The notes under the pieces were generated by a model. It did no database searches. It was not told where the DNA came from and was given only the letters and a program-made list of their open reading frames with translations. A DNA stretch of 64,000 bases. Source: Eledone cirrhosa (taxonomy: Eukaryota). The stretch covers positions 5,518,001 to 5,582,000 of the forward strand of contig OZ024763.1 of assembly GCA_964016885.1 (NCBI GenBank), given 5' to 3'. The translations under genes and the position numbers were made by a program. This document shows positions 1-62,870 of the stretch, one piece after another. How positions within the stretch are numbered: position 1 is the first letter of the stretch; each line of letters starts with the position of its first letter.

Positions 1-1404
1 AGCAGCTAATAGTGGTATAAGCTCTCTGAACTTTTTCCAACCAGTTCTGACTCTAGCTACAGTACTTTCAGAGCACCCTCCCCCACTGCTGATTTTATCG
101 CCCAGGTAACGGAAGCTGTCCACTATTTCCATAGAACCCTCTGCGCAATTGAAAGAGAACAAGACTGTTATTGCTCCAACCAGTCTATTTACCTTTGATA
201 ACTATCCTAAATATAAATACACCTATACCATACATACATATACCATATATGTTTTTGATGCCGTGGTATAGCAGAGATAAGCAAGAAGAGAGAAGAAAAT
301 GAAAAGGAGAAAAAAAGAGAAGTAAGAAGTTGGGGGAGGGACAGACACATCACCCCAGTCTAAGTGGTCCCTCAGACGCAACCCGTGGAAGAAACGTAAA
401 AGCGTTACCTCAGAGCAAGGCCAGAGACACCTGCTACAATAGTCGCCCCTCCTCACGAGGCTTCTGCCGTATTTCCTCCCGACTTTATGGAGGAAATCAG
501 CAGTATGGAGACCAAGTATGGCAGAAGTCTCAATGGAGTGGAAGAGGTGAGTCAGGCCTCGGTACGATCTTACTCTCCTCTGCATTGCGGGGTGTGGAGC
601 CTAGGTTTGTGGCTATAGCGATATTTGAACTTTTATATGAAATTTCAATTTTATATTTTTCACATCTTAAAACTTAATCTTACTCTTTTGCAGCTCATCT
701 TGTTTCATCTCGCAGCACACGATGTGGGAACCAAGACATAAAAACTATTTCAAGGGATCGACATCTGTAAAAAGGCTGAAAAACGCTGCTCAATGTTCTT
801 TGGTTTTTGTTCACCTTTAAATAATCATGTATAAACTATCGGGTGTTATCTTACAGGGACTAGCTCCAATTGAGAGTTGTACCAATTCCCACTAAACTCA
901 AAACTCCTGGACAATATATATATATCTTTATAAGTTCCTGTGTATTGTGTCGCTGTATAATGAAAGATAAACATATACCATGCATATCAATCAGGTTGGA
1001 ACTCACTATATTTGGTGTTTTATAGATATAATTTGTTTGTTAAAATAATTGATTAAATAATAACTAAATAAAATTAATTCTACAATCCTGGGTAGGGAAT
1101 GAACTTATAACTTCATAATAGAAGCCACATATTTAAGCAGTCTTGCCAACTAAGCCACCAGGTTACTTACAGAACTTCATTCAAATATAAAGTATTTTAA
1201 TTTAAATAAATAGATACTTATTTATATGATTGTCAATATAAATGCCGCAGAACATACATGCACACATATATGAAAGCAAGCTTGTTTTGAAACCGCAATC
1301 GAAGTTTTAAACAAATTATGACTATATATCGCCAGACATAGTGAGTTCGAATCTTACTGACTAGTTGGTCATTGTCCCAGCCAACAGTTTAAATCGCCAA
1401 CTGG

Positions 1405-1590: not shown

Positions 1591-1790
1591 AGAGATAAAA
1601 AAAAAAAAAAAAAAGCATGAAACCCTATATGTAACCCCTGACCAGAATTGAACCCCAAACAAGGACTACCACCATCTCTGGTATCTCACACCAGACCATC
1701 AGGAATGCTACAAAAATCTGCTGAATTTAATATTTATAAGCCTACTTTCAATATTAAAGTAATTAACATGTGGTGTTGTTCATGCCTTTC
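1591..1790 (-). mobile_element. Solo (half) copy of the palindrome-forming tRNA-like element
   Basis: Aligns to the right arm of 5995-6590 (ATATTTATAAGCCTACTTTC, TGTTCATGCC); minus strand has B-box-like GGGGTTCAATTCTGG and ends (T)n-ATCTCT, like the palindrome centre. Confidence 0.6.
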
Positions 1791-2212: not shown

Positions 2213-2546
2213 CAGTGGTTTAAAACCTTCTCTGCACCATGCCCCACCTCAACATTTAAAATATGTTTATGTCCCCCTTTAATATAAAAACAATCCGAGT
2301 CTTGTGAAAGTGTTATTACTGCAATATAAAGTAGAAACCCTTTATTTAAACAAAGCTGCGATGCAGCGATGATCAAAGCAAACCCCAAAATGTAAACAAA
2401 CTTCTCGTAGTTGCTGCCAGATACACGATAGCATGTCTAGACGAAGTGTAACAGGTGGTTGGGTCGTATTATATCACTTTCAAATTGACCCCTATTATAT
2501 TCAAATTGTTCCCCGTGAGGTGTGCACCCCACGTTGAGAATCCCTC
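2213..2546. mobile_element. Decayed hAT/Charlie-like MITE
   Basis: Ends CAGTGGTTTAAAACC and GTTGAGAATCCCTC approximate a CAGTGGTTCTCAAC-type TIR; no convincing TSD. Confidence 0.5.
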
Positions 2547-2576
2547 TTAAATAAATATATGTGAGTGAGTTGCTAT

Positions 2577-3544
2577 GACTGCTATTTCTAGCAGGTTTAC
2601 TGCTGTCCTGTAGACGCACAAGAAAAACCGGAAGTGGTAGACATTAAAAAACTTTGGCTTAAAATCAGGCAAAAGTTTTTAAACAATAGAAAATTTAATG
2701 TAAACAAACCAGGGTGTTTTTGCCAAGAAAGATAACTCTTGTCTTACTTAATGGCAAAAATCGAGACAAAAATGTTGTGTGTGTGTCTGTGTGTTATGTA
2801 TACAAGATATAGACGCCATTTTGAAGCCCGTACGTGGTCGGTCGACTTACTCGAAATAGTAGTCAAAAAGAGGAGATTTTTTTTTCACCAGATACAAAAA
2901 GTAGGTTTATAAATATTAATTTTCACTATATTTTTAAGGTGGTCTCGTTGGCCGAGTGGTACGGTGCGTTGAGTCTGCTGAGATACTGGTTGGGGGTTCG
3001 ATTCCGGCCAACGTCTACACATAGCGGGTCTTATTAAACTTTTTCACTTTTTATTTTATCTCTTAGTATAAAAAGTGAAAAAGTTTAATAAGACCCCCTA
3101 TGTGTAGACGTTGGCCGGGATCGAGACCCCGACCAGTATCTCAGCAGACTCAACGCACCGTACCACTCGGCCAACGAGACCGCCTTAAAAATATAGTGAA
3201 AATTAATATTTATAAACCTACTTTTTGTATCGGGTGAAAAAAAATCTCCTCTCTTTGACTACTATTTCGAGTAAGTCGACCGACCACGTACGGGCTTCAA
3301 AATGGCGTCTATATCTTGTATACATAACACACAGACACACACACAACATTTTTGTCTCGATTTTTGCCATTAAGTAAGACAAGAGTTATCTTTCTTGGCA
3401 AAAACACCCTGGTTTGTTTACATTAAATTTTCTATTGTTTAAAAACTTTTGCCTGATTTTAAGCCAAAGTTTTTTAATGGCTGCCTCTTCCGGTTTTTCT
3501 TGTGCGTCTACAGGACAGCAGTAAACCTGCTAGAAATAGCAGTC
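2577..3544. repeat. ~970-bp near-perfect palindrome (arms ~478 bp, 13-nt loop 3055-3067) with two convergent tRNA-like units
   Basis: 2577-3054 is the reverse complement of 3068-3544 with few mismatches; each arm has an A box TGGCCGAGTGG, a B-box-like GGTTCGATTCC/GGTCTCGATCCC and T-runs next to the loop. Confidence 0.95.
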
Positions 3545-4490
3545 TTTGGCTACTATTTCGAGCAAGTCGACCGACAACGTAGGGGGGTTCCCATATCTTA
3601 TATACATAACACACAGACACACACACATTTATGTGTTTTATTTAAAGTTTTTCAAAACTCCTCATCGGTTTATAGTTGATTCGAACTTACAATTGGCCAT
3701 CTACAGTCTTCTTGTTGACGTCTATATCTAGTATAGTTATATATAACACACAGACACACACACATTTATGTGTTTTATTTAAAGCTTTTCAAAACTCCTC
3801 ATCGGTTTATAGTTGATTCGAACTTTCAATTGGCCATGTACAGTCTTCCTGTTGACGTCTATATCTAGTATATAAATACATAACACACAGACACACACAC
3901 ATTTATGTGTTTTATTTGGTCGTCCTTGTGAGCAAGTCGAGCGGTTACATATGGGTTCCATGTTACCTACACAAGTTCATATCTCATTGAACTAACGTTG
4001 ATTTCAACTTCGAATATTTGAACATACAATATGTAGTTACAGATGCTTCATAAATACAACTCCTGTCATTGCGCCATTCCTATACAAAGGGTGTGTTTGT
4101 GTGAGAAAGGGAGATCCGTGTTTATATCTAGTATAGTTATGCATTACACAGACACACACACAAGTATGCCTTTGATTATATTAAGACATTTTCAGACTTT
4201 TTTTGTTAACAGTTTAATGTTTATTGGAAACCACAACGTGATTGACAGTAATTCGAATATATTTGATCATATAGTATGTAGTTACTTCATAACTACAATA
4301 CCTATATACATAGGAATGCGTGAAAACGTGTGTATGTGAGATAGTTTAAAAAGGGAAATTAGTGTTTATATCTAGTATAGTTACACATAACACACACGAA
4401 TGTGCTTTTTAATATATTAAGACATTTTCAAACTTTCTTCTTAACAGTTTAGTGTTTATTCGATGCCACAACGGGATTGGCAGTACTGCA
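3545..4490 (+). repeat. Degenerate tandem repeats (~138-bp core) derived from the palindrome arm
   Basis: 3545-3630 repeats 3252-3350; two near-identical ~138-bp units at ~3600-3910; motif TATATCTAGTATAGTTA...CACACAGACAC recurs to ~4400. Confidence 0.8.
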
Positions 4491-4558
4491 CTAATGTATC
4501 GTAAATTAAATTTGCCATGCGTCATTCATATATATGTATATATATATATATATATATA

Positions 4559-4640
4559 TAACAAAGGAGTTATGGTAAGGAACTAGATGGACCATAACGC
4601 ACCAGAGTACTCAATACTTAGGGTAATAGGAGATGTGTGT
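4559..4640 (-). mobile_element. Fragment of the same (TA)n-associated repeat family
   Basis: AACAAAGGAGTTATGGTAAGGAACTAGATGGACCATAACGCACCAGAGTACTCAATACTT is a diverged reverse complement of 6942-7003 and also abuts (TA)n. Confidence 0.6.
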
Positions 4641-5045: not shown

Positions 5046-5994
5046 AGGGACGTAACTCTAAGACACTAAATACATCAGAAACTTTCAACAAAATCATAAT
5101 GTAAACGTAAATCATTGAAAATATATATCTGCAGCATATGTATGATTAAAATAGATATGAGCAAATAAATTGTGAATCATTAAACTCTACTTTTGTGGCT
5201 TTATTTATATCGTGAAATGTTGTCAGACATTAAATTGTGGCTATGATTGTCTTTACATTAGAGTGTTTGATTCAAATCTTTTTGTGTGTGAGTGTTGTAG
5301 ATTTGATGCTATGGAGGTCTGTTCAGCAATAATGAAACTTTAATCGTTTTTTTTTTTAAGAACATTAACTTATTTAAAAAAATTCTTTTTAGATTATTCG
5401 TACCTCCTGAATATGGTTACTTTCGATACTGACTCCCTGCCTTGATTATTGGTTCTGGCATTGCTGTTGTGGGCGGCTTAAATTTAATCCATAAGATCAC
5501 AAGAATCTAAAAATGAAATGTTGCATACAGACAGACGTTACGTTTATCCTAGGTATTTTGACAAATGTCTCGATGTCCATTGTTTTGAAAAATAGTACAA
5601 TAAAGAAATGCCATCATCTAGTAATCCTTGATAATAATCCAGTTTCGTTGCAGCCATGGTAAATGGTAAGAAAAAACAAAAATAAAAGACACATTCAGCA
5701 GTTAATGCAGTAAAACAAACAATAAAAATATCATTACTAAATAAAAATAATTCCTTACTTTCATTCATTTGTTTTTGTTATCGTTTTTAAATATAATTAA
5801 AATTTGTTTAATAAGTTATTTTTCATTACAATTATATACATATTATAATTATATGTCTATTATATTATATAGGAATCAGGTTTATCAATTTACGAGAACG
5901 TCGCATCAAGTTCAAATCTTTCTCCCACACAATACTTAGGTATGGCAGATTTGAAGTTAGTAGAGATTATTGCAGGTAGTCAATGTAGGTTCAA

Positions 5995-6590
5995 ATAAAC
6001 CCTAGAGCTATGAATAACAAAAGCAAGTTATAATTTATCAAAGTTCCAGTGGGATGAAAGACAAGGTCGACCCCTTTGTTGCGAGACTAACAGAGACGGG
6101 AAAGCCATGAAGGCCACCACGTCAATTTCGCTTCGAAACAGAAAGTAGGTTTATATATAATAATATGTAGTCGGTTTTCAAAAGCGCCTTGGTGGCGTAG
6201 TGGTAAATATAAGAGATGGTGGGAAATTTGGCCGGGGGTTTAAGCTTGGTCCACAACTACATTTAGAGGATGTTATTAATTGTTAATATTTTTTTTATCT
6301 TATGAGACAAACAATTAAAATGTTCAGTGTAGATCTTACCCGAGATTGAACTCCAGACCAGGATCTCCACCGTCTCTGACACCACTTGGCTACCGAGACA
6401 ACTTCAAATACATACTGACAATTAATATTTATAAACCTACTTTCTATTTCAAAGCAAAAATTACGTGGTGATGTTCATGGCATTCTCCGTCTAATTCATA
6501 TTACAAAAGGGGTCAACATTGGGTTTTAATTATCTGGGGCTTTGATAAAACATAGCTCGATTCAATTTGTCATCTTTTAAGGGTTGATTT
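5995..6590. repeat. Older degenerate palindrome of the same tRNA-like family (also at about 21357-21952, 37359-37950, 53381-53972)
   Basis: Symmetric word pairs GAAAGTAGGTTTATA/TATAAACCTACTTTC, GCCATGAA/TTCATGGC, TTTATCAAAG/CTTTGATAAA and GAGCTATG/CATAGCTC around a centre near 6300; arms align to the arms of 2577-3544. Confidence 0.8.
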
Positions 6591-6796: not shown

Positions 6797-6800
<4 letters not shown>

Positions 6801-7001
6801 GGAACCAGTAAGACCCCGACAGCTGAGCTCAAGCCGTTTCGACGGCTAATTCTGGACTGAATTAAGTCCAGAATTAGCCGTCGAAACGGCTTGAGCTCAG
6901 CTGTCGGGGTCTTACTGGTTCCTACTACCCACTCTACTACCTCAAGTATTGAGTACTTTGGTGCGTTATGGTCCACCTGGTTCCTTACCACATTTCCTTC
7001 G

Positions 7002-7003
<2 letters not shown>
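6797..7003 (+). mobile_element. (TA)n-embedded insertion with a perfect 132-bp hairpin containing a hammerhead 3' half (Penelope-like relic); unit 1 only
   Basis: 63-bp arms (6796-6858 / 6865-6927), loop GAATTA; contains CGAAAC-GGCT-TGAGCTC-AGCTG-TC; tail is homologous to the reverse complement of ~4560-4625; absent from the matching TA tract in units 2-4. Confidence 0.7.
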
Positions 7004-8810: not shown

Positions 8811-9350
8811 GTCCAGTCTACACTGTAAAGTGGTCATGTAGGTGAGCAGCAAAACATACCCAGTACACACTGTAAAGTGGTCGTGTAGGCGAGCAGTAAA
8901 AAACACCCAGTACATACTGTAAAGTGGTCATGTAGGTGAGCAGCAAAACATACCCAGTACACACTGTAAAGTGGTCGTGTATGTGAGCAGTAAAAACATA
9001 CCCAGTCTACACTGTAAAGTGGTCGTGTAGTTGAGCAGTAAAACATACCCAGTACACACTGTAAAGTGGTCGTGTAGACGAGCATCAAAACATACCCAGT
9101 ACACACTGTAAAGTGGTCGTGTAGACGAGCATCAAAACATACCCAGTACACACTGTAAAGTGGTCGTGTAGACGAGCATCAAAACATACCCAGTACACAC
9201 TGTAAAGTGGTCGTGTAGGCGAGCAGCAAAACATACCCAGTCTACACTGTAAAGTGGTCGTGTAGGCGAGCAGCAAAACACACCCAGTACACACTGTAAA
9301 GTGGTCATGTAGGTGAGCAGTAAAAAACACCCAGTACATACTGTAAAGTG
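8811..9350 (+). repeat. 47-bp minisatellite (also 23905-24350, 39920-40458, 55942-56480)
   Basis: Unit CCAGTACACACTGTAAAGTGGTCGTGTAGGCGAGCAGCAAAACATAC; ~11 copies (~9 in unit 2). Confidence 0.95.
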
Positions 9351-9590
9351 GAACACGGAACTTTTCTATGGATGTCACTGGATTACTCGCCATCAGATTA
9401 CATTGAGTTCTATCTACGGTACGGACCCTACCACCAGGGGTAGACCACATAAAAAAATAAATATATCTATATATATATCTATATATATATATATATATAC
9501 TATATATCGATTCGTTTAATACATTATACAAGGGATATATAGTATGTCAACCGTTGTATTACTCTATATATCCACCCCACTATATTTCAG

Positions 9591-10050: not shown

Positions 10051-10058
10051 CCCCCATT

Positions 10059-10455
10059 CCCTGTAACATTGTGATCCCAACTTTAATACAGTTCCCCCCT
10101 TCTCTGTAACATTGTGATGCCAACGTTAATACAGTCCCCCCCCTTCTCTGTAACCTTGTGACCCCAACTTTAATACAACCCCCTTCTCTGTAACCTTGTG
10201 ACCCCAACTTTAATACAGCCCCCTTCTTTGTAACCTTGTGACCCCAACTTTAATACAACCCCCTTCTCTGTAACCTTGTGACCCCAACTTTAATACAGCC
10301 CCCTTCTCTGTAACCTTGTGACCCCAACTTTAATACAGCCCCCTTCTCTGTAACCTTGTGACCCCAACTTTAATACAATCCCCCCTTCTCTGTAACCTTG
10401 TGACCCCAACTTTAATACAGCCCCCTTCTCTGTAACCTTGTGACCCAACTTAATA
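10059..10455 (+). repeat. 40-bp minisatellite, ~10 copies, in the intron between exons A and B
   Basis: Unit CCCCTTCTCTGTAACCTTGTGACCCCAACTTTAATACAGC. Confidence 0.95.
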
Positions 10456-13290: not shown

Positions 13291-13309
13291 ACGTCATATA
13301 TATATATAT

Positions 13310-13614
13310 AGTGGCAGACTGGGTCTAAAAATATTGGTTCGCAGGAGATAAAGGGGACCCACCCACATATAGAATGCTATCATTTAATTTTAATAATGAA
13401 TAAATAACATTTTCAAAAAATACATCAGTGAAAACAAAACATTGCAATCAAATTTTTGCAGGAAAGAAATGTGTATTTTTTACTAATTATAGTGTATATA
13501 TACTGTACATATTACTGGTAGTATACAGCAAACCACTCGTGTTGGATGCCACTTGCACCGACACCTTCTGCAGCCGCAACCTGGTGCAGTCTGCGACTGA
13601 CCCAGGTTCTGCTG
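13310..13614. mobile_element. Probable DNA transposon end fragment
   Basis: Begins AGTGGCAGACTGGG directly after (TA)n, resembling a CAGTGGCGGACT-type terminus; no partner end in the window. Confidence 0.35.
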
Positions 13615-15480
13615 CATCATGGTTGTGTTGGTTCTGAGCCTCATTAGGTAATGCATTATTCGTTACTTCTATAGATGTACAATCATGCCCTATGTAACAT
13701 ATTTAAAGAGGTATTTGACACTTTTTACAGAAGGGCAAACTTCAACATTAATATGTGCACAATATTTCTTAAGCAAAAAGGCATAAAATGGAACAACATT
13801 CCTGTTATCTACTGTATGTCATCCAATTTACACTGCAGTTCCTGTCTTGCACCTCCTGTACTCTGGGTATCCATTTAGGTTCAATAATGTTTTCCTTCTG
13901 TAGGTTTTTGGATAGTTCTTTTGGAAAAATCCATTTTGTATAAATGGGGAAAAAGGGTTTCCAGAACCACATGGCCCGTGGATCATAAACTTTTAAACCT
14001 GCTCATGTAGTACTGGATCATCTTCCAATGCAGGTATTTCTGCTGACACGATTCTGTCAATGTCTTCTCTCTTTCTTATCTTGTCTTCATTTCTTAAGGC
14101 TCAGTGTTATCATCTGTTTAGATAATTCATTAAACCATTATACTCATCCACTCACAATTGGGCTTGATTGTTCCTCAAATATTGAAGCCTGCATCCCTCT
14201 ACTTTCATATAGGCATCCACTAAATACTGCTAAAATAATTTGCCTGCCCTATATATCGCACTAAATCCTCCTCTATATGCTATACAGTATATGTAATACT
14301 CCTGCATTGTCAGTCTATTGCAAAGACAGGTCCTGCATTCCTCTCCATGTCACTATGTCACCAAAATTCACCATTATGGGTCGGTCATGAGGTCCAAGTG
14401 GCATGAATTATGTGGTATTTTCTGAGGAGGATGGTCTTTAGGAAAGATGATAATATCTCTTTGTATAGGTGGTGTGCCCTCAATCCCCCACAAAACAACA
14501 GCTATCATTACTAGTTGGTAAATTATAGCAGCTCATATCTGATCCTCTTCTAAATCTTAATTCACAGTTCTGTACACAACAATTTTCTCTTCTGGCTCTT
14601 TGCTGTTTGATGCCATGCATTGTATTATACACTTCGACATATGGATTACATTCATGCAACACCTCTCTTATCATAGTCATTTTTTGTGGTGAGCAGTCAT
14701 TATTTGTTGGTACTAGGGCGGTGGATTGGCAGTATCGGTAGAGCGTCAGACACCATGCTTTGCAGCATACGGTTATGGCCCTTTACGTTCTGGGTTCAAA
14801 TCCCTCCAAGGTTGACTTAGTTTTCATCCTTATGAGGTCGATAGAATAAAGTATCAGTAATACACTGGAGTAATTGCTGGCCTTGTGCCAGAAACAATTA
14901 TTTGGTGGTACTTCCAATCTGTGCTACACAGCTTCATTCCCATCAATAATATATAACTGGCCATATTGTAGTGTATTTTCTGCAGGTTACAGAGGTGGGG
15001 TGTAGTGATATGTTTGACCCTGAATATGAAAGCTATACGGGCCTCTGCCGGGTGGTAAGGCAAGTTTAACACCAAATGAAGTGAAAGAAATGTAGTTTTA
15101 ATTGCAGATGTTTCTGTGAAATCAACTGCTTCCTGGTCCCTTTCAAAGAGATTTCTCAATCTCTCAGGGTATATTTGCAATGGAGGCAACACAACCTTTC
15201 CTTTATTACAACAGTTACAATTTTCATTTCTAAATCTCAAAGCTCCACAGTGATCACACGAAACATTCATATCACTAATATGAAATTCTTCTACATTTCC
15301 ATTAATATTAATTGCTGGGCAATTTCTCCTACGACGTTCATTATCCATTCTTCTCTGTCTGAATGTTTTCCATTCTAAGTCTATTTGCATGGATTAATTA
15401 TATTCTGTTGTTTATTATGTAATTAAATAGCTCTGTACAATACATAGAGAACTCTTCTTTTCTTTACCTTTTCTATGGAA
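13615..15480 (-). mobile_element. Helitron Rep fragment (N-terminal Zn finger to Rep), decayed
   Basis: Minus strand: MNVSCDHCGALRF..CNCCNKGKVVLPPL; GKLF*QYLVDAYMKVE..RLQYLRNNQ; IVSAEIP..MIHGPCG..NP..GYPEYRR; HINVEVC..VKSVKYLFKY. Confidence 0.93.
14715..14896 (+). mobile_element. tRNA-derived SINE inserted in the Helitron (also ~30717-30898, ~46742-46923)
   Basis: A box TGGCAGTATCGG, B box GGTTCAAATCC; 16-bp target-site duplication ATTATTTG(T/G)TGGTACT at 14699-14714 and 14897-14912. Confidence 0.88.
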
Positions 15481-17954: not shown

Positions 17955-18922
17955 GACTGCTATTTCTAGCAGGTTTACTGCTGTCCTGTAGACGCACAAG
18001 AAAAACCGGAAGTGCTAGACATTAAAAAACTTTGGCTTAAAATCAGGCAAAAGTTTTTAAACAATAGAAAATTTAATGTAAACAAACCAGGGTGTTTTTG
18101 CCAAGAAAGATAACTCTTGTCTTACTTAATGGCAAAAATCGAGACAAAAATGTTGTGTGTGTGTCTGTGTGTTATGTATACAAGATATAGACGCCATTTT
18201 GAAGCCCGTACGTGGTCGGTCGACTTACTCGAAATAGTAGTCAAAGAGAGGAGATTTTTTTTTCACCCGATACAAAAAGTAGGTTTATAAATATTAATTT
18301 TCACTATATTTTTAAGGTGGTCTCGTTGGCCGAGTGGTACGGTGCGTTGAGTCTGCTGAGATACTGGTCGTGGTCTCGATCCCGGCCAACGTCTACACAT
18401 AGGGGGTCTTATTAAACTTTTTCAGTTTTTATTTTATCTCTTAGTATAAAAACTGAAAAAGTTTAATAAGACCCCCTATGTGTAGACGTTGGCCGGAATC
18501 GAGACCCCGACCAGTATCTCAGCAGACTCAACGCACCGTACCACTCGGCCAACGAGACCACCTTAAAAATATAGTGAAAATTAATATTTATAAACCTACT
18601 TTTTGTATCGGGTGAAAAAAAATCTCCTCTCTTTGACTACTATTTCGAGTAAGTCGACCGACCACGTACGGGCTTCAAAATGGCGTCTATATCTTGTATA
18701 CATAACACACAGACACACACACAACATTTTTGTCTCGATTTTTGCCATTAAGTAAGACAAGAGTTATCTTTCTTGGCAAAAACACCCTGGTTTGTTTACA
18801 TTAAATTTTCTATTGTTTAAAAACTTTTGCCTGATTTTAAGCCAAAGTTTTTTAATGGCTGCCTCTTCCGGTTTTTCTTGTGCGTCTACAGGACAGCAGT
18901 AAACCTGCTAGAAATAGCAGTC
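17955..18922. repeat. Long palindrome, unit 2 copy
   Basis: Same structure as 2577-3544. Confidence 0.95.
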
Positions 18923-33957: not shown

Positions 33958-34924
33958 GACTGCTATTTCTAGCAGGTTTACTGCTGTCCTGTAGACGCAC
34001 AAGAAAAACCGGAAGAGGCAGCCATTAAAAAACTTTGGCTTAAAATCAGGCAAAAGTTTTTAAACAATAGAAAATTTAATGTAAACAAACCAGGGTGTTT
34101 TTGCCAAGAAAGATAACTCTTGTCTTACTTAATGGCAAAAATCGAGACAAAAATGTTGTGTGTGTGTCTGTGTGTTATGTATACAAGATATAGACGCCAT
34201 TTTGAAGCCCGTACGTGGTCGGTCGACTTACTCGAAATAGTAGTCAAAGAGAGGAGATTTTTTTTCACCCGATACAAAAAGTAGGTTTATAAATATTAAT
34301 TTTCACTACATTTTTAAGGTGGTCTCGTTGGCCGAGTGGTACGGTGCGTTGAGTCTGCTGAGATACTGGTCGTGGTCTCGATCCCGGCCAACGTCTACAC
34401 ATAGGGGGTCTTATTAAACTTTTTCAGTTTTTATTTTATCTCTTAGTATAAAAACTGAAAAAGTTTAATAAGACCCCCTATGTGTAGACGTTGGCCGGGA
34501 TCGAGACCCCGACCAGTATCTCAGCAGACTCAACGCACCGTACCACTCGGCCAACGAGACCACCTTAAAAATATAGTGAAAATTAATATTTATAAACCTA
34601 CTTTTTGTATCGGGTGAAAAAAAATCTCCTCTCTTTGACTACTATTTCGAGTAAGTCGACCGACCACGTACGGGCTTCAAAATGGCGTCTATATCTTGTA
34701 TACATAACACACAGACACACACACAACATTTTTGTCTCGATTTTTGCCATTAAGTAAGACAAGAGTTATCTTTCTTGGCAAAAACACCCTGGTTTGTTTA
34801 CATTAAATTTTCTATTGTTTAAAAACTTTTGCCTGATTTTAAGCCAAAGTTTTTTAATGGCTGCCTCTTCCGGTTTTTCTTGTGCGTCTACAGGACAGCA
34901 GTAAACCTGCTAGAAATAGCAGTC
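33958..34924. repeat. Long palindrome, unit 3 copy
   Basis: Same structure; left arm homogenised to the right arm around 34012-34025. Confidence 0.95.
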
Positions 34925-49986: not shown

Positions 49987-50944
49987 GACTGCTATTTCTA
50001 GCAGGTTTACTGCTGTCCTGTAGACGCACAAGAAAAACCGGAAGTGGTAGACATTAAAAAACTTTGGCTTAAAATCAGGCAAAAGTTTTTAAACAATAGA
50101 AAATTTAATGTAAACAAACCAGGGTGTTTTTGCCAAGAAAGATAACTCTTGTCTTACTTAATGGCAAAAATCGAGACAAAAATTTTGTGTGTGTTATGTA
50201 TACAAGATATAGACGCCATTTTGAAGCCCGTACGTGGTCGGTCGACTTACTCGAAATAGTAGTCAAAGAGAGGAGATTTTTTTTTCACCCGATACAAAAA
50301 GTAGGTTTATAAATATTAATTTTCACTATATTTTTAAGGTGGTCTCGTTGGCCGAGTGGTACGGTGCGTTGAGTCTGCTGAGATACTGGTCGGGGTCTCG
50401 ATCCCGGCCAACGTCTACACATAGGGGGTCTTATTAAACTTTTTCAGTTTTTATTTTATCTCTTAGTATAAAAACTGAAAAAGTTTAATAAGACCCCCTA
50501 TGTGTAGACGTTGGCCGGGATCGAGACCCCGACCAGTATCTCAGCAGACTCAACGCACCGTACCACTCGGCCAACGAGACCACCTTAAAAATGTAGTGAA
50601 AATTAATATTTATAAACCTACTTTTTGTATCGGGTGAAAAAAAATCTCCTCTCTTTGACTACTATTTCGAGTAAGTCGACCGACCACGTACGGGCTTCAA
50701 AATGGCGTCTATATCTTGTATACATAACACACAGACACACACACAACATTTTTGTCTCGATTTTTGCCATTAAGTAAGACAAGAGTTATCTTTCTTGGCA
50801 AAAACACCCTGGTTTGTTTACATTAAATTTTCTATTGTTTAAAAACTTTTGCCTGATTTTAAGCCAAAGTTTTTTAATGGCTGCCTCTTCCGGTTTTTCT
50901 TGTGCGTCTACAGGACAGCAGTAAACCTGCTAGAAATAGCAGTC
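49987..50944. repeat. Long palindrome, unit 4 copy
   Basis: Same structure; ~10-bp deletion in the GT-rich part of the left arm near 50185. Confidence 0.95.
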
Positions 50945-59093: not shown

Positions 59094-61339
59094 GTAAGTT
59101 GACAGATTTCTCAGATTTGTGGAATTGTTGTGGGATTTGGCGAGGTTTTTGTAGGATTTTTGTGGGATTTTTGTAAATCTTTCTGGATCTGCCTTGATTT
59201 TGTAGATTTTGTGGATCACAAAAATATTGTACAACTGTATAATAACAATAGACATACACATATTCTAATAAGTGTAATACTTGTACTTAATTCAGCCTCC
59301 TTCCTTCCATCACTCATGAACACAGCCCCGAGGTACTTGAACTTCTCTTTCTGCTTCAGTGAAACTCCATTCACATGTAGAACATTATGATTGGTTTTTT
59401 TTTTTTTGGTTGGGGGGAGAATGATTGAAATGCCAGACGGCTCCTAAAATATCTAAAAGCCTTGGTGACCCCAGTATGGGTTAGTATGCCCTTCACTACT
59501 CTAATGTCCATGAGGGTCTGATAGGGAAGGAGTAAATGCTATATACCCCAGCCTCATTCCCATGAAAAGCTGATTAAGGAAGCACCATTCCTCTCTGCCC
59601 CCCCCCCCCACACACACACACACTTTTTCCTTGACAGCTGATGAGTCTTTAATAAAAATTGAAACTAATCAGATTGATCTTTTATTATTATTATTATCAT
59701 TATCCAGAGCCATAATAAATCAAATGAAAAATATATATGTATATATAGAGAGAAAGAGCCATATACCTTAGAGGAAACATAGTATATTGTATATATACTA
59801 AATATATATTTCAGATAGGAATATGTACTTACAGTGGAGTCATTAGAGAGACCTTATAGCACTATTTCATATTCTGTAGAGTGTGGTTGAAAATCAATCT
59901 ATGTAATCGATCATCGAAGACAAACTATCAATTATAATTAAACCACAGGAGACTCAGAATTATCATCAGAGGTTATAGTCTCAGAATTCTAAGAGAAATA
60001 TAGAATCAAAATACAATATACTTGCCAATATCCATAGAGACTGCTAACGTAACCACCATGTTGAAGACCACATGGTGTCATCATCATCATTTTACGTCTG
60101 CTTTTCCCTGCATTCTTTCCACTAGAGATAGGTGTGGAAATTATAGTCACCCCATCTCAACAAGAGATTTGGAGCTGTTATATACAAATGTAATGATTCA
60201 AAACATCAAATATGTTAGAATTTTGTGTTTCTTGATAAACAAGCTGAATATATATAAATCATCATCATCATCACCGTTTTACGTGCATTCTTCCACACTA
60301 GCATGGGATAGACAGGTTGTCCTGTTGTGGGAAGTGTCCGGTCGGCTGACCATGCCTTGCTCATACGGGAACTGATTCTGGCTTGATTTCTACAGTGAGT
60401 GTTGGGTGCTTTTTTTCCGTAGTGCCTATACGTCATGTATATATATATATAGTGGCAGACTGGGTCTAAAAATATTGGTTGCCAGGAGATAAAGGGGACC
60501 CACCCACATACAGAGGAGGATTTAATGCGATATATAGGGCAGGCAAATTATTTTAGCAGTATTTAGTGGATGCCAATATGAAAGTAGAGGGATGCAGGCT
60601 TCAATATTTGAGGAACAATCAAGCCCAATTGTGAGTGGATGAGTATAATGGTTTAATGAATTATCTAAACAGATGATAACACTGAGCCTTAAGAAATGAA
60701 GACAAGATAAGAAACAGAGAAGACATTGATAGAATCGTGTCAGCAGAAATACCTGCATTGGAAGATGATCCAGTACTACATGAGCAGGTTTAAAAGTTTA
60801 TGATCCATGGGCCATGTGGTTCTGGAAACCCTTTTTCCCCATTTATACAAAATGGATTTTTCCAAAAGAACTATCCAAAAACCTACAGAAGGAAAACATT
60901 ATTGAACCTAAATGGATACCCAGAGTACAGGAGGTGCAAGACAGGAACTGCAGTGTAAATTGGATGACATACAGTAGATAACAGGAATGTTGTGCCATTT
61001 AATGCCTTTTTGCTTAAGAAATATTGTGCACATATTAATGTTGAAGTTTGCCCTTCTGTAAAAAGTGTCAAGTACCTCTTTAAATGTGTTACATAGGACA
61101 TGATTGTGCATCTATAGAAGTAACGAATAATGCATTACCTAATGAGGCTCAGAACCAACACAACCATGATGAAATAAGAACCTATCTTTGTTGCAGGTAT
61201 GTGTCTCAGCCAGAAGCAGTGTCGTGTCTCTAGGAATTTAAGCTTCATGGTACATCACATACAGTATACAGACTAGCCACACACCGGGCGAACAAACAGA
61301 GTTTACTTTCAAAGAGGCAATGCTCAGGTTGCGGTAGAA

Positions 61340-61795
61340 ATGCAGGGTCACCGAGACACTACCCTTGCTGCCTGGTTCAAGCTAAATGAACTTCTGAACT
61401 TGCTTACACCTTCTGGGATGCCGCCTCACAAACTCCAATTAAAAGCAGGATCAATAATAATGCTTCTATGGAATATTTCAATCCAGAACAGATTATGTAA
61501 TGGCACAAGATTAGAAGTAGTGGAACTGCATCAACATGTTATCGAAGCTTCTCATATCTATGGTCCTTTGATGGGCAGGTGTGTTTTGATCCCAAGACTG
61601 AAGTTAGCCCCCAGTGGTGCCAACATCCCTTTTACTTTGGAAAGACCCCAGTTGCCATTAAGACTGTCATATGCCATGACAATCAACAAGAACCATGGTC
61701 AAATATATGATAAAGTGGGTCTGTTCCTCCCTGAACAAGTATTTAACCCTGGACAATTGTATGTTGCTTTTTCAAGAGTTCACAGACAGATGTAA
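61340..61795 (+). pseudogene. Helitron PIF1-family helicase fragment
   Basis: C-terminal PIF1 motifs are present; N-terminal helicase motifs are deleted; the usual SQGQ has degenerated to NHGQ. Confidence 0.9.
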
Positions 61796-61797
61796 AA

Positions 61798-62122
61798 ATG
61801 AATCCTACCAACCCCACCACTCCTACAACTGTTAGCCCACCCCCAGCACCACCCAACCTCCGTTCTAGTCCCACCGTTAGAACCAATGCTGCTTACCTTG
61901 CCTCTTTTACTAGTTCACTCCCTCGCTCGAATTTCAAAGCTGGCCCTCTTCAGCTGGTCGTTGCCAGCTCACCACCTGGTTGTGCTCTCTGTGTCCGCAC
62001 TAGCCGGTACCTAAACACAATAAAATGTCACCTGTGCTACCAAAACTACCACAGGAACTGTGTCGGCATCAGCAAGGCTCAAGCCGAAAGGCTTCAATAC
62101 TAGACCTGTAATCAGTGCCGCT
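61798..62122 (+). pseudogene. PHD-finger-encoding fragment (probably retrotransposon-derived)
   Basis: CALC-x11-CHLC-x4-HRNC-x13-*TCNQC fits C4HC3; the conserved Trp codon reads TAG; P/T/S-rich leader. Confidence 0.75.
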
Positions 62123-62558
62123 TTAGCTCCGACGACCAGCTATCTACCGAGTGTGTCTCGATGGAGGGGACACGAGACCAGCAAAGTCCAAGGAGTGGAG
62201 ACTACTAAATGAGATACGGTCATAGCTATGTTAAGAATATATATAAGAAACATGTTCTATACATTTAAGAAGACAAGAGAAATAAATATTTACCTCTTCC
62301 ATGTAGGTAATATAGCGGTGTTATAAAACTAATTATACGACCGGTGTAACAGTCGGTATAAATGAAAGATGTAGAAATAAAAGCTGCAACATTGACATGG
62401 ATAAAGATAATATGACCAAGAATAAATATTTAATGGAATTAAGTGTAATTTAATAAGAAATAAGTAAAACGGTGAAAGAAACAATAACAAACAAAATGGA
62501 GACAGAAAATTTGTTTTGTCTTTATAAAGCTTATTTTTAGCGCGATTTTCCTTTTAAT

Positions 62559-62870
62559 TCTGTAGCTCAGTTAGTAGCAGCTCCGCTTACTAACCTTAGG
62601 GCTATAACGTTACATGGTTCGAATCTTACACTCTTCTCTATAGTGCCACGCGAGTTATCTCCTAGTCTTTTTATTTAGTTTCACTGTTTAGTGAAAGAGG
62701 GCGCTACGAGCAGTTACTTATGTAGACGGGTGGTTAGCGACTCGGCTTACTAACATTAGCATTATTACGTTACATGGGTTCGAACCCTGTCGGCGCCTCA
62801 ATTTTTCAAATAGAGTTATCCTCCATGGTACTTTAGAGTTTCATTGTTTACTCGAAAGATGGCGCGGCTA
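62559..62870 (+). repeat. Two tandem tRNA-like units (~165-bp period) in the Helitron 3' region
   Basis: TAGCTCAGTTAG...CTTACTAAC...ACGTTACATGGTTCGAATC and GACGGGTGGTTAG...CTTACTAAC...ACGTTACATGGGTTCGAACCC, each followed by AGTTATC..GTTTCAyTGTTTA..GAAAGA(T)GGCGC. Confidence 0.65.

What the first reader, a model, noticed from the sequence alone, without database searches (positions are those of the whole stretch)
2577..3544. Giant palindrome of two convergent Pol III-like units joined tail to tail
Seen: arms of ~478 bp around a 13-nt loop. Each arm has an A box with a D-stem (GCCG-AGTGGTA-CGGT), a B box and oligo-T right at the centre, so both units point inward. The flanks of the boxes pair with each other (CGTTGGCCG...CGGCCAACG), giving a panhandle instead of a cloverleaf, more like vault/VA-type Pol III RNAs. 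Inference: a fold-back mobile element or small-RNA cassette able to give a ~110-nt Pol III RNA or, by read-through or host pre-mRNA, ~480 bp of dsRNA. That would be an ADAR/Dicer substrate, relevant if the host is a heavily RNA-editing coleoid.
Basis: partly seen in the sequence, partly recalled or inferred. Interest (0 to 1): 0.75.

Follow-up and report, generated by a model that had tools for sequence, protein, structure and literature searches.

The report
Tail-to-tail Pol III gene pair family
The palindrome is real: it holds two facing copies of a likely RNA polymerase III gene from a large repeat family in this octopus-like genome that I did not find described, and promoter-less copies elsewhere suggest that a sister copy made a ~108-nt RNA in the germ line, whereas the proposed vault-like fold and polymerase III read-through into long double-stranded RNA are not supported.

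Summary
Confirmed: 478/477-bp arms (97.5% identical) around a 13-nt spacer, in all four 16-kb repeats of the window; a short-read contig spans the centre. The palindrome is composite. A 569-bp core holds two facing units (TATA at -28, A box, B box, T5 stops). The outer 199 bp is borrowed from a flanking fold-back repeat, and there is no target-site duplication. The subfamily has 16 palindromes plus 6 promoter-less solos that mostly end at the first T-run, four fused to dispersed repeats. These look like retro-chimeras, so the RNA was likely made. All 6 match a sister locus on C18, not this copy. The wider family has at least 1,622 promoter-motif hits, and 126 of 178 sampled units face a partner. 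They sit in macrosatellites, chromosome-end blocks and a hAT MITE. Box residues are conserved (0.83 vs 0.68), but the RNA fold shows no covariation. The panhandle is not predicted, vault RNA lies elsewhere, and terminators oppose read-through. Closest model: rodent 4.5SH and primate snaR genes. The scan's earlier notes did not hold this element.

The parts
2577..3544 (.). Whole palindrome: arms 2577-3054 and 3068-3544, spacer 3055-3067
   Evidence: 97.5% arm identity; short-read contig spans 3004-3159
2776..3345 (.). 569-bp core palindrome, found at other loci without one or both outer 199-bp pieces
   Evidence: L003, L009, L010, L012, L028
2898..2925 (+). Family promoter motif with TATAAATA at 2908-2915, -28 from the inferred start at 2936
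   Evidence: 32 of 32 subfamily arms; a host U6 gene has TATAAATA at -30; 1,622 exact motif hits, control 0
2936..3044 (+). Left Pol III unit, predicted ~109-nt RNA: A box 2949-2959, consensus B box 2995-3005, T5 terminator 3040-3044
   Evidence: ends inferred from solo copies L061-L066
3078..3186 (-). Right Pol III unit: A box 3173-3163, B box 3127-3117 with 2 mismatches, T5 at 3082-3078; TATA at 3214-3207
3040..3082 (.). Shared two-way terminator block: three T-runs on +, two on -; predicted transcripts do not overlap (33-nt gap)
2213..2795 (+). One arm of a separate long-TIR fold-back repeat with CAGTG ends (1.2-1.7 kb elsewhere). Its inner part 2577-2775 forms the outer left arm of the palindrome
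   Evidence: 88-95% matches that run on leftwards past 2577 in L081-L098
3346..3544 (-). Copy of 2577-2775 in the right arm, likely laid in by arm-to-arm copying or recombination
   Evidence: on both arms in 9 loci (partly in L023), on one arm in 4, absent in 2
3545..4527 (+). Right flank with 137-bp repeats; forms both outer arms of larger 2.3-3.3 kb palindromes at other loci
6142..6443 (.). Second, older convergent pair of the same family
1611..1748 (-). Unpaired family unit
17955..18922 (.). Copy 2 of the palindrome (copies 3 and 4 at 33958-34924 and 49987-50944)

Best explanation
The palindrome is a tail-to-tail pair of likely RNA polymerase III genes, from a large repeat family that likely spread as DNA, each predicted to make a ~108-nt three-hairpin RNA that stops at a shared two-way T-run terminator, and not a mobile fold-back element of its own. 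Shown: layout (TATA -28, A box, B box, T5), family size, pairing habit, composite arms, arm-to-arm exchange, and carriage in duplicated blocks and in a hAT MITE. Inferred: TFIIIC binds the boxes and TFIIIB the TATA; the C18 sister locus is the main germ-line source of RNA, and retroelement reverse transcriptases captured that RNA as chimeras. The window copy could be transcribed from its left arm, but nothing shows it. The family keeps its promoter residues and not its RNA fold. My preferred reading of what is maintained is therefore Pol III/TFIIIC occupancy itself, as a chromatin punctuation mark in repeat arrays, with the RNA as an abundant 4.5S-like product; this last step is about 40% likely.
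For: TATA in 32 of 32 arms, A box in 31, consensus B box in 19. Same TATA word and distance as a host U6 gene; box positions match type 2 promoters as given in PMC7279448 (Introduction). All 6 solo copies lack the upstream region; two start at 2936; 5 of 6 end at 3041-3045; 4 of 6 are fused 3' to repeats found at many other loci; one has an 11-bp TSD. This is the layout of template-switch chimeras (PMC2104539, PMC4476161, abstracts). All 6 solos carry the B-box variant seen in only 2 of 32 arms, both at C18. 126 of 178 sampled family units face a partner. Ten box residues are 0.83 conserved vs 0.68 for 50 other columns, permutation p=2e-5, 96 units. Own arms differ by 6.1 vs 8.9 between loci; 16 of 29 shared variants sit in both arms of one locus. 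The spacer is flipped against its flanks, 7 vs 4 loci.
Against: No direct RNA, ChIP or in-vitro evidence. The solos point to C18, not to this locus. The solos lack the consensus B box, so the apparently active lineage has a non-consensus box. 7 of 8 window arms have a damaged B box. L063 and L064 may be one event, and the 3' partners of L061 and L065 had no match in my locus set. The conservation test treats columns as independent and ignores phylogeny, and units were picked by their upstream motif. 52 of 178 units do not face a partner, and head-to-tail arrays exist (L138). The boundary role is untested.
Confidence: 0.7

Rival explanations
1. The RNA itself is a functional lineage-specific small RNA (4.5SH/snaR/BC1-like), and the arrays are dosage amplification of its gene.
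For: Solos 95-99% identical to the C18 unit imply expression over a period. A hairpin fold is kept in 76.6% of cells vs 32-46% when slid. Rodent 4.5SH genes also sit in hundreds of 4-5 kb tandem units (PMC7279448).
Against: No covariation beyond shuffles (50 of 500). 3' halves and lengths vary widely, 63-150 nt. Mean column identity is 59%.
Confidence: 0.25
2. Selfish or neutral passenger: a tRNA/SINE-head relic, folded back once and amplified by macrosatellite turnover and hAT transposition. Box conservation reflects a bias for transcribed or fragile copies to duplicate, not host benefit.
For: Many decayed copies (B-box motif in 41 of 80 units). Carried by a hAT MITE. Frequent flips and larger fold-back palindromes centred on the pair.
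Against: Preferential conservation of box residues across 96 diverged units still needs a cause. It is compatible with the best explanation on mechanism and differs only on benefit.
Confidence: 0.3
3. The 968-bp palindrome is a fold-back DNA transposon (MITE) that moves as a unit.
For: Long inverted arms; relatives ride in a true hAT MITE.
Against: No TSD. The left arm continues into another repeat. The outer 199 bp is variable. The 16 copies share flanks and cluster on C24.
Confidence: 0.04
4. The locus is a source of ~480-bp dsRNA for ADAR or Dicer, through a host Pol II transcript running across it.
For: 97.5% arms would pair if co-transcribed. A GTGAGT donor near 548 and an acceptor near 693 hint at a + strand spliced RNA in the 16-kb unit (read, untested).
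Against: Pol III read-through is opposed by two or more T5 runs each way. No protein-coding host gene was found. The older family pairs have arms only about 65-80% alike, so long perfect dsRNA is not a family property.
Confidence: 0.1
5. It is the vault RNA or a VA-type panhandle RNA.
For: Size, A/B boxes and complementary 9-mers in this subfamily.
Against: No RF00006 match at E<=10. A separate cluster on C3 passes the Vault cut-off, 14 matches up to 43.3 vs 34 bits. Panhandle probability <=0.02; 51.9% paired across the family, no better than a slid control at 54.0%.
Confidence: 0.03

Closest known systems
Rodent 4.5SH RNA genes (PMC7279448; abstract and Introduction part 1 of 2 read)
   Same: ~100-nt Pol III RNA with type 2 A/B boxes plus a -31/-24 box; lineage-restricted; hundreds of genes, each in a 4-5 kb tandem unit.
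   Different: 4.5SH derives from B1/7SL and has a non-canonical TATA-like box. Here the head is tRNA-like, the TATA is canonical TATAAATA, the usual module is a facing pair with a shared terminator, and copies are far more diverged.
Primate snaR family (PMC3045588; passages read)
   Same: Pol III RNA of about 117 nt, spread mostly by segmental duplication in tandem clusters, rapid turnover.
   Different: Alu-derived, about 30 genes; no facing-pair module or DNA-transposon carrier in the passages I saw.
U6/LINE and WEIRD/Mg-SINE chimeric retrocopies (PMC4476161, PMC2104539; abstracts read)
   Same: A copy of a non-coding RNA fused 5' of a SINE or LINE 3' part, marking an expressed RNA.
   Different: Here only 6 copies, with several different partners, one a Penelope-type end (label recalled).
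Helenus TRIMs (PMC10886601; passages read)
   Same: Mobile element carrying a tRNA-like A/B-box sequence; present in molluscs.
   Different: Helenus has direct LTRs, PBS/PPT and 4-5 bp TSDs. Here the units are inverted, and the mobile carrier has 14-bp TIRs and 8-bp TSDs.
Vault RNA (Rfam RF00006)
   Same: Type 2 promoter, similar length, clustered genes.
   Different: No model match, no terminal panhandle; the genome's vault genes are a different cluster on C3.
tRNA-derived SINEs
   Same: A/B boxes, D-arm-like and T-arm-like hairpins.
   Different: Most copies keep upstream DNA and a terminator and have no LINE tail or TSD, so they did not spread through RNA.

Membership tests
Pol III type 2 gene | A box TRGYnnARBGG at about +12 to +22 | tested here: met
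   31 of 32 arms; +14 from the inferred start
Pol III type 2 gene | B box GGTTCRAnYCY at about +54 to +64 | tested here: inconclusive
   Met in the left arm (+60) and in 19 of 32 arms; not met in the right arm or the C18 arms
Pol III type 2 gene | Oligo-T terminator | tested here: met
   T5 at 3040-3044; 5 of 6 solos end at 3041-3045
Pol III type 2 gene | Transcription by Pol III | not testable with these tools
   Only indirect, from solo copies
Vault RNA | Match to RF00006 | tested here: not met
   No hit at E<=10; the C3 cluster passes the cut-off
Vault RNA | 5'/3' terminal stem | tested here: not met
tRNA gene | Cloverleaf with acceptor stem and anticodon arm | tested here: not met
   ARAGORN 0 in the window and in 32 loci; no RF00005 hit
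tRNA-derived SINE | Copies bounded by the transcript, with LINE-type tail and TSD | tested here: not met
   32 of 38 subfamily copies keep upstream DNA and sit in pairs; only 6 are transcript-bounded
MITE / fold-back transposon (968-bp palindrome) | Constant termini flanked by a TSD at unrelated sites | tested here: not met
Non-autonomous hAT (carrier of related pairs, not this locus) | Short TIRs and 8-bp TSD | tested here: met
   Both 14-bp TIRs found in 6 of 36 loci examined; TSD matches 8, 8 (a TA run), 7, 6, 6 and 4 of 8; 4 of the 6 carry both units. The hAT label for CAGTG ends is recalled
Helenus TRIM | Two direct LTRs with PBS and PPT | tested here: not met
   Units are inverted, no LTR pair; PBS/PPT not searched
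4.5SH / snaR (homology) | Descent from B1/Alu (7SL) | tested here: not met
   No SRP/7SL match in Rfam scans; a resemblance in organisation only

The most novel reading that the evidence does not exclude
Octopods have an undescribed class of Pol III genes, over a thousand copies built mainly as facing pairs with a canonical TATA and a shared terminator. It is selected for TFIIIC/Pol III occupancy in macrosatellites and chromosome-end blocks, has been spread by a hAT transposon, and one lineage makes an abundant germ-line RNA with a host function, an invertebrate parallel of rodent 4.5SH.
Probability: 0.25. Interest if true: 0.8.

Novelty: new variant of a known kind. Interest (0 to 1): 0.52.

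Why it matters
Lineage-specific Pol III RNAs amplified in tandem repeats are described in rodents and apes. This would be a candidate parallel in a cephalopod-like genome, with three unusual traits: a facing-pair module with a two-way terminator, a canonical TATA on a type 2 promoter (PMC7279448 says animal type 2 ncRNA genes lack one), and capture by a DNA transposon. Diagnostic bases name one locus (C18) as the likely source of the RNA, so one Northern blot or small-RNA remap can test it. The palindrome also records ongoing arm-to-arm conversion and flipping. The window copy itself is one of 16 near-identical duplicates and may be silent.

Tried and rejected
Rfam at gathering thresholds: no match in the window, in 5 of 6 loci (only the vault locus matched) or in 20 further loci. 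At E<=10 only hairpin-driven miRNA-model hits well below their cut-offs. ARAGORN: none. Sequencing runs: no RNA holder listed. RAD-seq run X4 did not cover the core. Read support for the C18 locus was not obtained, so it rests on the assembly and on 68 X4 reads whose loose ends carry its upstream junction. Metagenome scan for the promoter motif: 0. Pfam on 15 ORFs of the repeat unit and its relatives: nothing above cut-off. A short ORF in the macrosatellite unit recurs in at least 150 places but mostly with stops; unresolved. RNAalifold gave only a 6-pair 5' helix at -1.26 kcal/mol. Helenus/TRIM reading rejected. A PSE-like or octamer element shared with U6 was not seen upstream of the unit. 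Literature searches listed no description of this family. The library lacks most subscription papers, Repbase and Dfam were not available, and I did not open the supplements of the O. vulgaris repeat annotation (PMC13282606; part 1 of 3 of the text read), where the family could be listed as an unknown repeat or MITE.

Full report
Observation. The arms 2577-3054 and 3068-3544 are 478 and 477 nt, 97.5% identical, around a 13-nt spacer. The repeat scores 1592 bits against a best of 44.6 in 30 order-2 Markov shuffles. The window is four tandem copies of a 15-16 kb block at 96-99% identity, and each holds the palindrome. A 156-nt short-read contig spans 3004-3159, across the centre (run X2; it may be the sample behind the assembly). 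With the diverged sister copies, this excludes a long-read fold-back artefact. The genome is 3.0 Gb. An octopus-like host is inferred from recalled repeat types and earlier scan notes, not tested.

The palindrome is composite. A 569-bp core (2776-3345) occurs without one or both outer pieces at other loci. The outer 199 bp on the left is the inner part of an arm of another fold-back repeat that runs on leftwards to a CAGTG end at about 2213. The 199-bp piece is on both arms in 9 loci, partly in one more, on one arm in 4 and absent in 2. The flanks of 2577/3544 show no duplication. At three loci the right flank with its 137-bp repeats forms both outer arms of 2.3-3.3 kb palindromes. These loci share flanking DNA, and the arm end is low-copy. 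So the 968-bp stretch is not a mobile unit; it spread inside duplicated blocks.

The arms exchange sequence. Among 30 arms (C18 locus left out), partner arms differ at a mean of 6.1 sites against 8.9 between loci. Of 29 shared minor variants, 19 occur on both sides and 16 in both arms of one locus; 10 are on one side only. The asymmetric spacer faces one way against its flanks in 7 loci and the other way in 4, which is what crossover between arms gives.

Each arm holds a Pol III-type unit. TATAAATA lies at 2908-2915, the A box at 2949-2959, the B box at 2995-3005 and T5 at 3040-3044; the right arm mirrors them. Of 32 subfamily arms, 32 have the TATA, 31 the A box and 19 a consensus B box; in the window only 1 of 8 arms does. 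One host U6 gene has the same TATA word at -30. Positions match the type 2 promoter described in PMC7279448 (abstract and Introduction part 1 of 2 read). That paper also states that animal type 2 ncRNA genes lack a canonical TATA. Three T-runs on + and two T5 on - lie between the units, the predicted RNAs do not overlap, and both are the same sense. Long dsRNA by Pol III read-through is therefore unlikely.

Evidence for an RNA. A search with the predicted transcript gave 38 matches (22 of 22 candidates scored): 32 arms in 16 palindromes (14 on C24, 1 on C25, 1 on C18) and 6 solos on six different contigs. All 6 solos lack the upstream region. They start at 2936, 2936, 2941, 2945, 2955 and 2963; five end at 3041-3045, in the first T-run, and one ends at 3024 with an 11-bp TSD. 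Four are joined 3' to repeats found at many other loci: a Penelope-type end (16 loci), a full SINE (7 loci; two solos, perhaps one event) and an RTE-type tail (14 loci). Those family labels are recalled. The partners of the other two had no match in my set of 104 loci plus the window unit. This is the layout of template-switch chimeras (PMC2104539, PMC4476161; abstracts), and I infer that the RNA was made in the germ line. All 6 solos carry a one-base-shorter B-box variant found in only 2 of the 32 arms, both at C18 (L099). That locus has three GCGCATGCGC words upstream (NRF1-like, recalled). The evidence is thus for the sister locus, not the window copy. The C24 copies may have multiplied after the chimeras formed, which weakens the contrast.

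The wider family. A 25-nt promoter pattern has 816+806 exact hits against 0 for its control. Units sit in 3.4-5 kb units without a recognised gene in tandem arrays on C15, C22, C24 and C26, in 15-22 kb blocks near chromosome ends, and inside a ~1-1.2 kb element with 14-bp TIRs and 8-bp TSDs. For that element both TIRs were found in 6 of 36 loci, TSD matches were 4-8 of 8, and one end has 258 exact hits. Of 178 sampled units with 700 nt of room, 126 face an opposite unit as next neighbour (39/60, 36/43, 51/75); 52 do not, and one head-to-tail array of 11 exists. The window has a second, older pair at 6142-6443. Among 96 units under 82% identity, ten box-defining residues are 0.83 conserved against 0.68 for 50 other non-CpG transcribed columns (permutation p=2e-5; columns treated as independent, phylogeny ignored).

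RNA structure. The right arm and the C18 unit fold as three hairpins; the left arm's 5' half folds differently. I aligned 36 of the 61 non-redundant units (25 truncated, degenerate or near-redundant ones dropped by eye). The panhandle pairs in 51.9% of cells, no better than a slid control (54.0%). A 5' helix with D-like arm plus a 3' hairpin pairs in 76.6% against 32-46% slid, but covariation does not exceed shuffles (50 of 500), and that structure was drawn from the consensus. The fold looks inherited rather than selected. The unit is not vault RNA: there is no RF00006 hit, while a tandem cluster on C3 gives 14 matches over the cut-off. It is not a tRNA.

How it most likely works. Inferred: TFIIIC binds the A and B boxes, TFIIIB the TATA, and Pol III makes a ~108-nt RNA from each side that stops at the shared terminator. 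The pair arose by a fold-back duplication, is homogenised by conversion and crossover, and spreads by segmental duplication, macrosatellite turnover and, for one branch, hAT transposition. Because promoter residues are conserved and the fold is not, I favour occupancy of the locus (boundary or punctuation in repeat arrays; TFIIIC boundary role recalled, listing only) over a structured-RNA function. A functional 4.5SH-like RNA and a selfish passenger remain live rivals.

Comparison and verdict. It works like rodent 4.5SH genes (hundreds of copies in 4-5 kb tandem units) and primate snaR (spread by segmental duplication; PMC3045588 passages), but is homologous to neither. It fails the tests for vault RNA, tRNA, SINE, Helenus (PMC10886601 passages) and, at this locus, MITE. 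PMC7904556 (passages) confirmed only that vault genes use A and B boxes. Ten literature searches and four look-ups in the scan's notes did not show this family. Repbase, Dfam and the supplements of PMC13282606 (part 1 of 3 of the text read) were not seen and could hold it as an unclassified repeat. New variant of a known kind; interest 0.52.

Noticed in passing
G000:C3:221.18-221.25 Mb (L159-L164): Tandem cluster of vault RNA candidates: 14 matches over the Rfam RF00006 cut-off (best 43.3 vs 34 bits), with terminal stem and T-run. One literature search listed no molluscan vault RNA gene description.
   Followed up: partly
G000:C19:31.78-31.84 Mb (L151-L158): Tandem array of about 33 U6 genes at ~1.8 kb spacing; in some units a SINE-like segment has replaced the upstream octamer-like region.
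   Followed up: no
L195-L200, L206 (ends of C13, C8, C10, C6): 15-22 kb repeat blocks shared between chromosome ends, holding family pairs and reverse-transcriptase-like ORFs; orientation is mirrored at the two ends of C13.
   Followed up: partly
L138:4562-6200: Head-to-tail array of 11 family units at ~150 bp spacing, each with promoter and T-run.
   Followed up: partly
window 6798-7003 and 4561-4630: Penelope-type terminal hairpin (label recalled) between (TA)n runs; the same end flanks solo L062.
   Followed up: partly
window 60507-61800 and 13615-14279: Helitron-type Pif1 helicase relic (PF21530, E 3.7e-15); 665 bp of it lies inverted in three of the 16-kb units.
   Followed up: partly
window 13309-13470: One end of the CAGTGGCGGACTGG-type element that elsewhere carries family pairs.
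   Followed up: partly
window 5547-5680 (-) and L146:9176-9352: Short ORF-like segment starting MAAT.. after a possible splice acceptor, found in at least 150 macrosatellite units, often with a ~50-codon open frame; no Pfam match.
   Followed up: partly
window 400-700: Possible spliced + strand transcript: GTGAGT donor near 548, acceptor near 693, short ORF.
   Followed up: no
window 62550-62800: Two tandem tRNA-like A/B-box units of another type; ARAGORN and Rfam did not call them.
   Followed up: no
window 2577-2870: Words resembling ETS (CCGGAAGTG), YY1 and ZNF143/Staf sites upstream of the units (motifs recalled).
   Followed up: no
window 8813-9351 and 10052-10455: 47-bp and 40-bp minisatellites whose copy number varies among the four 16-kb units.
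   Followed up: no
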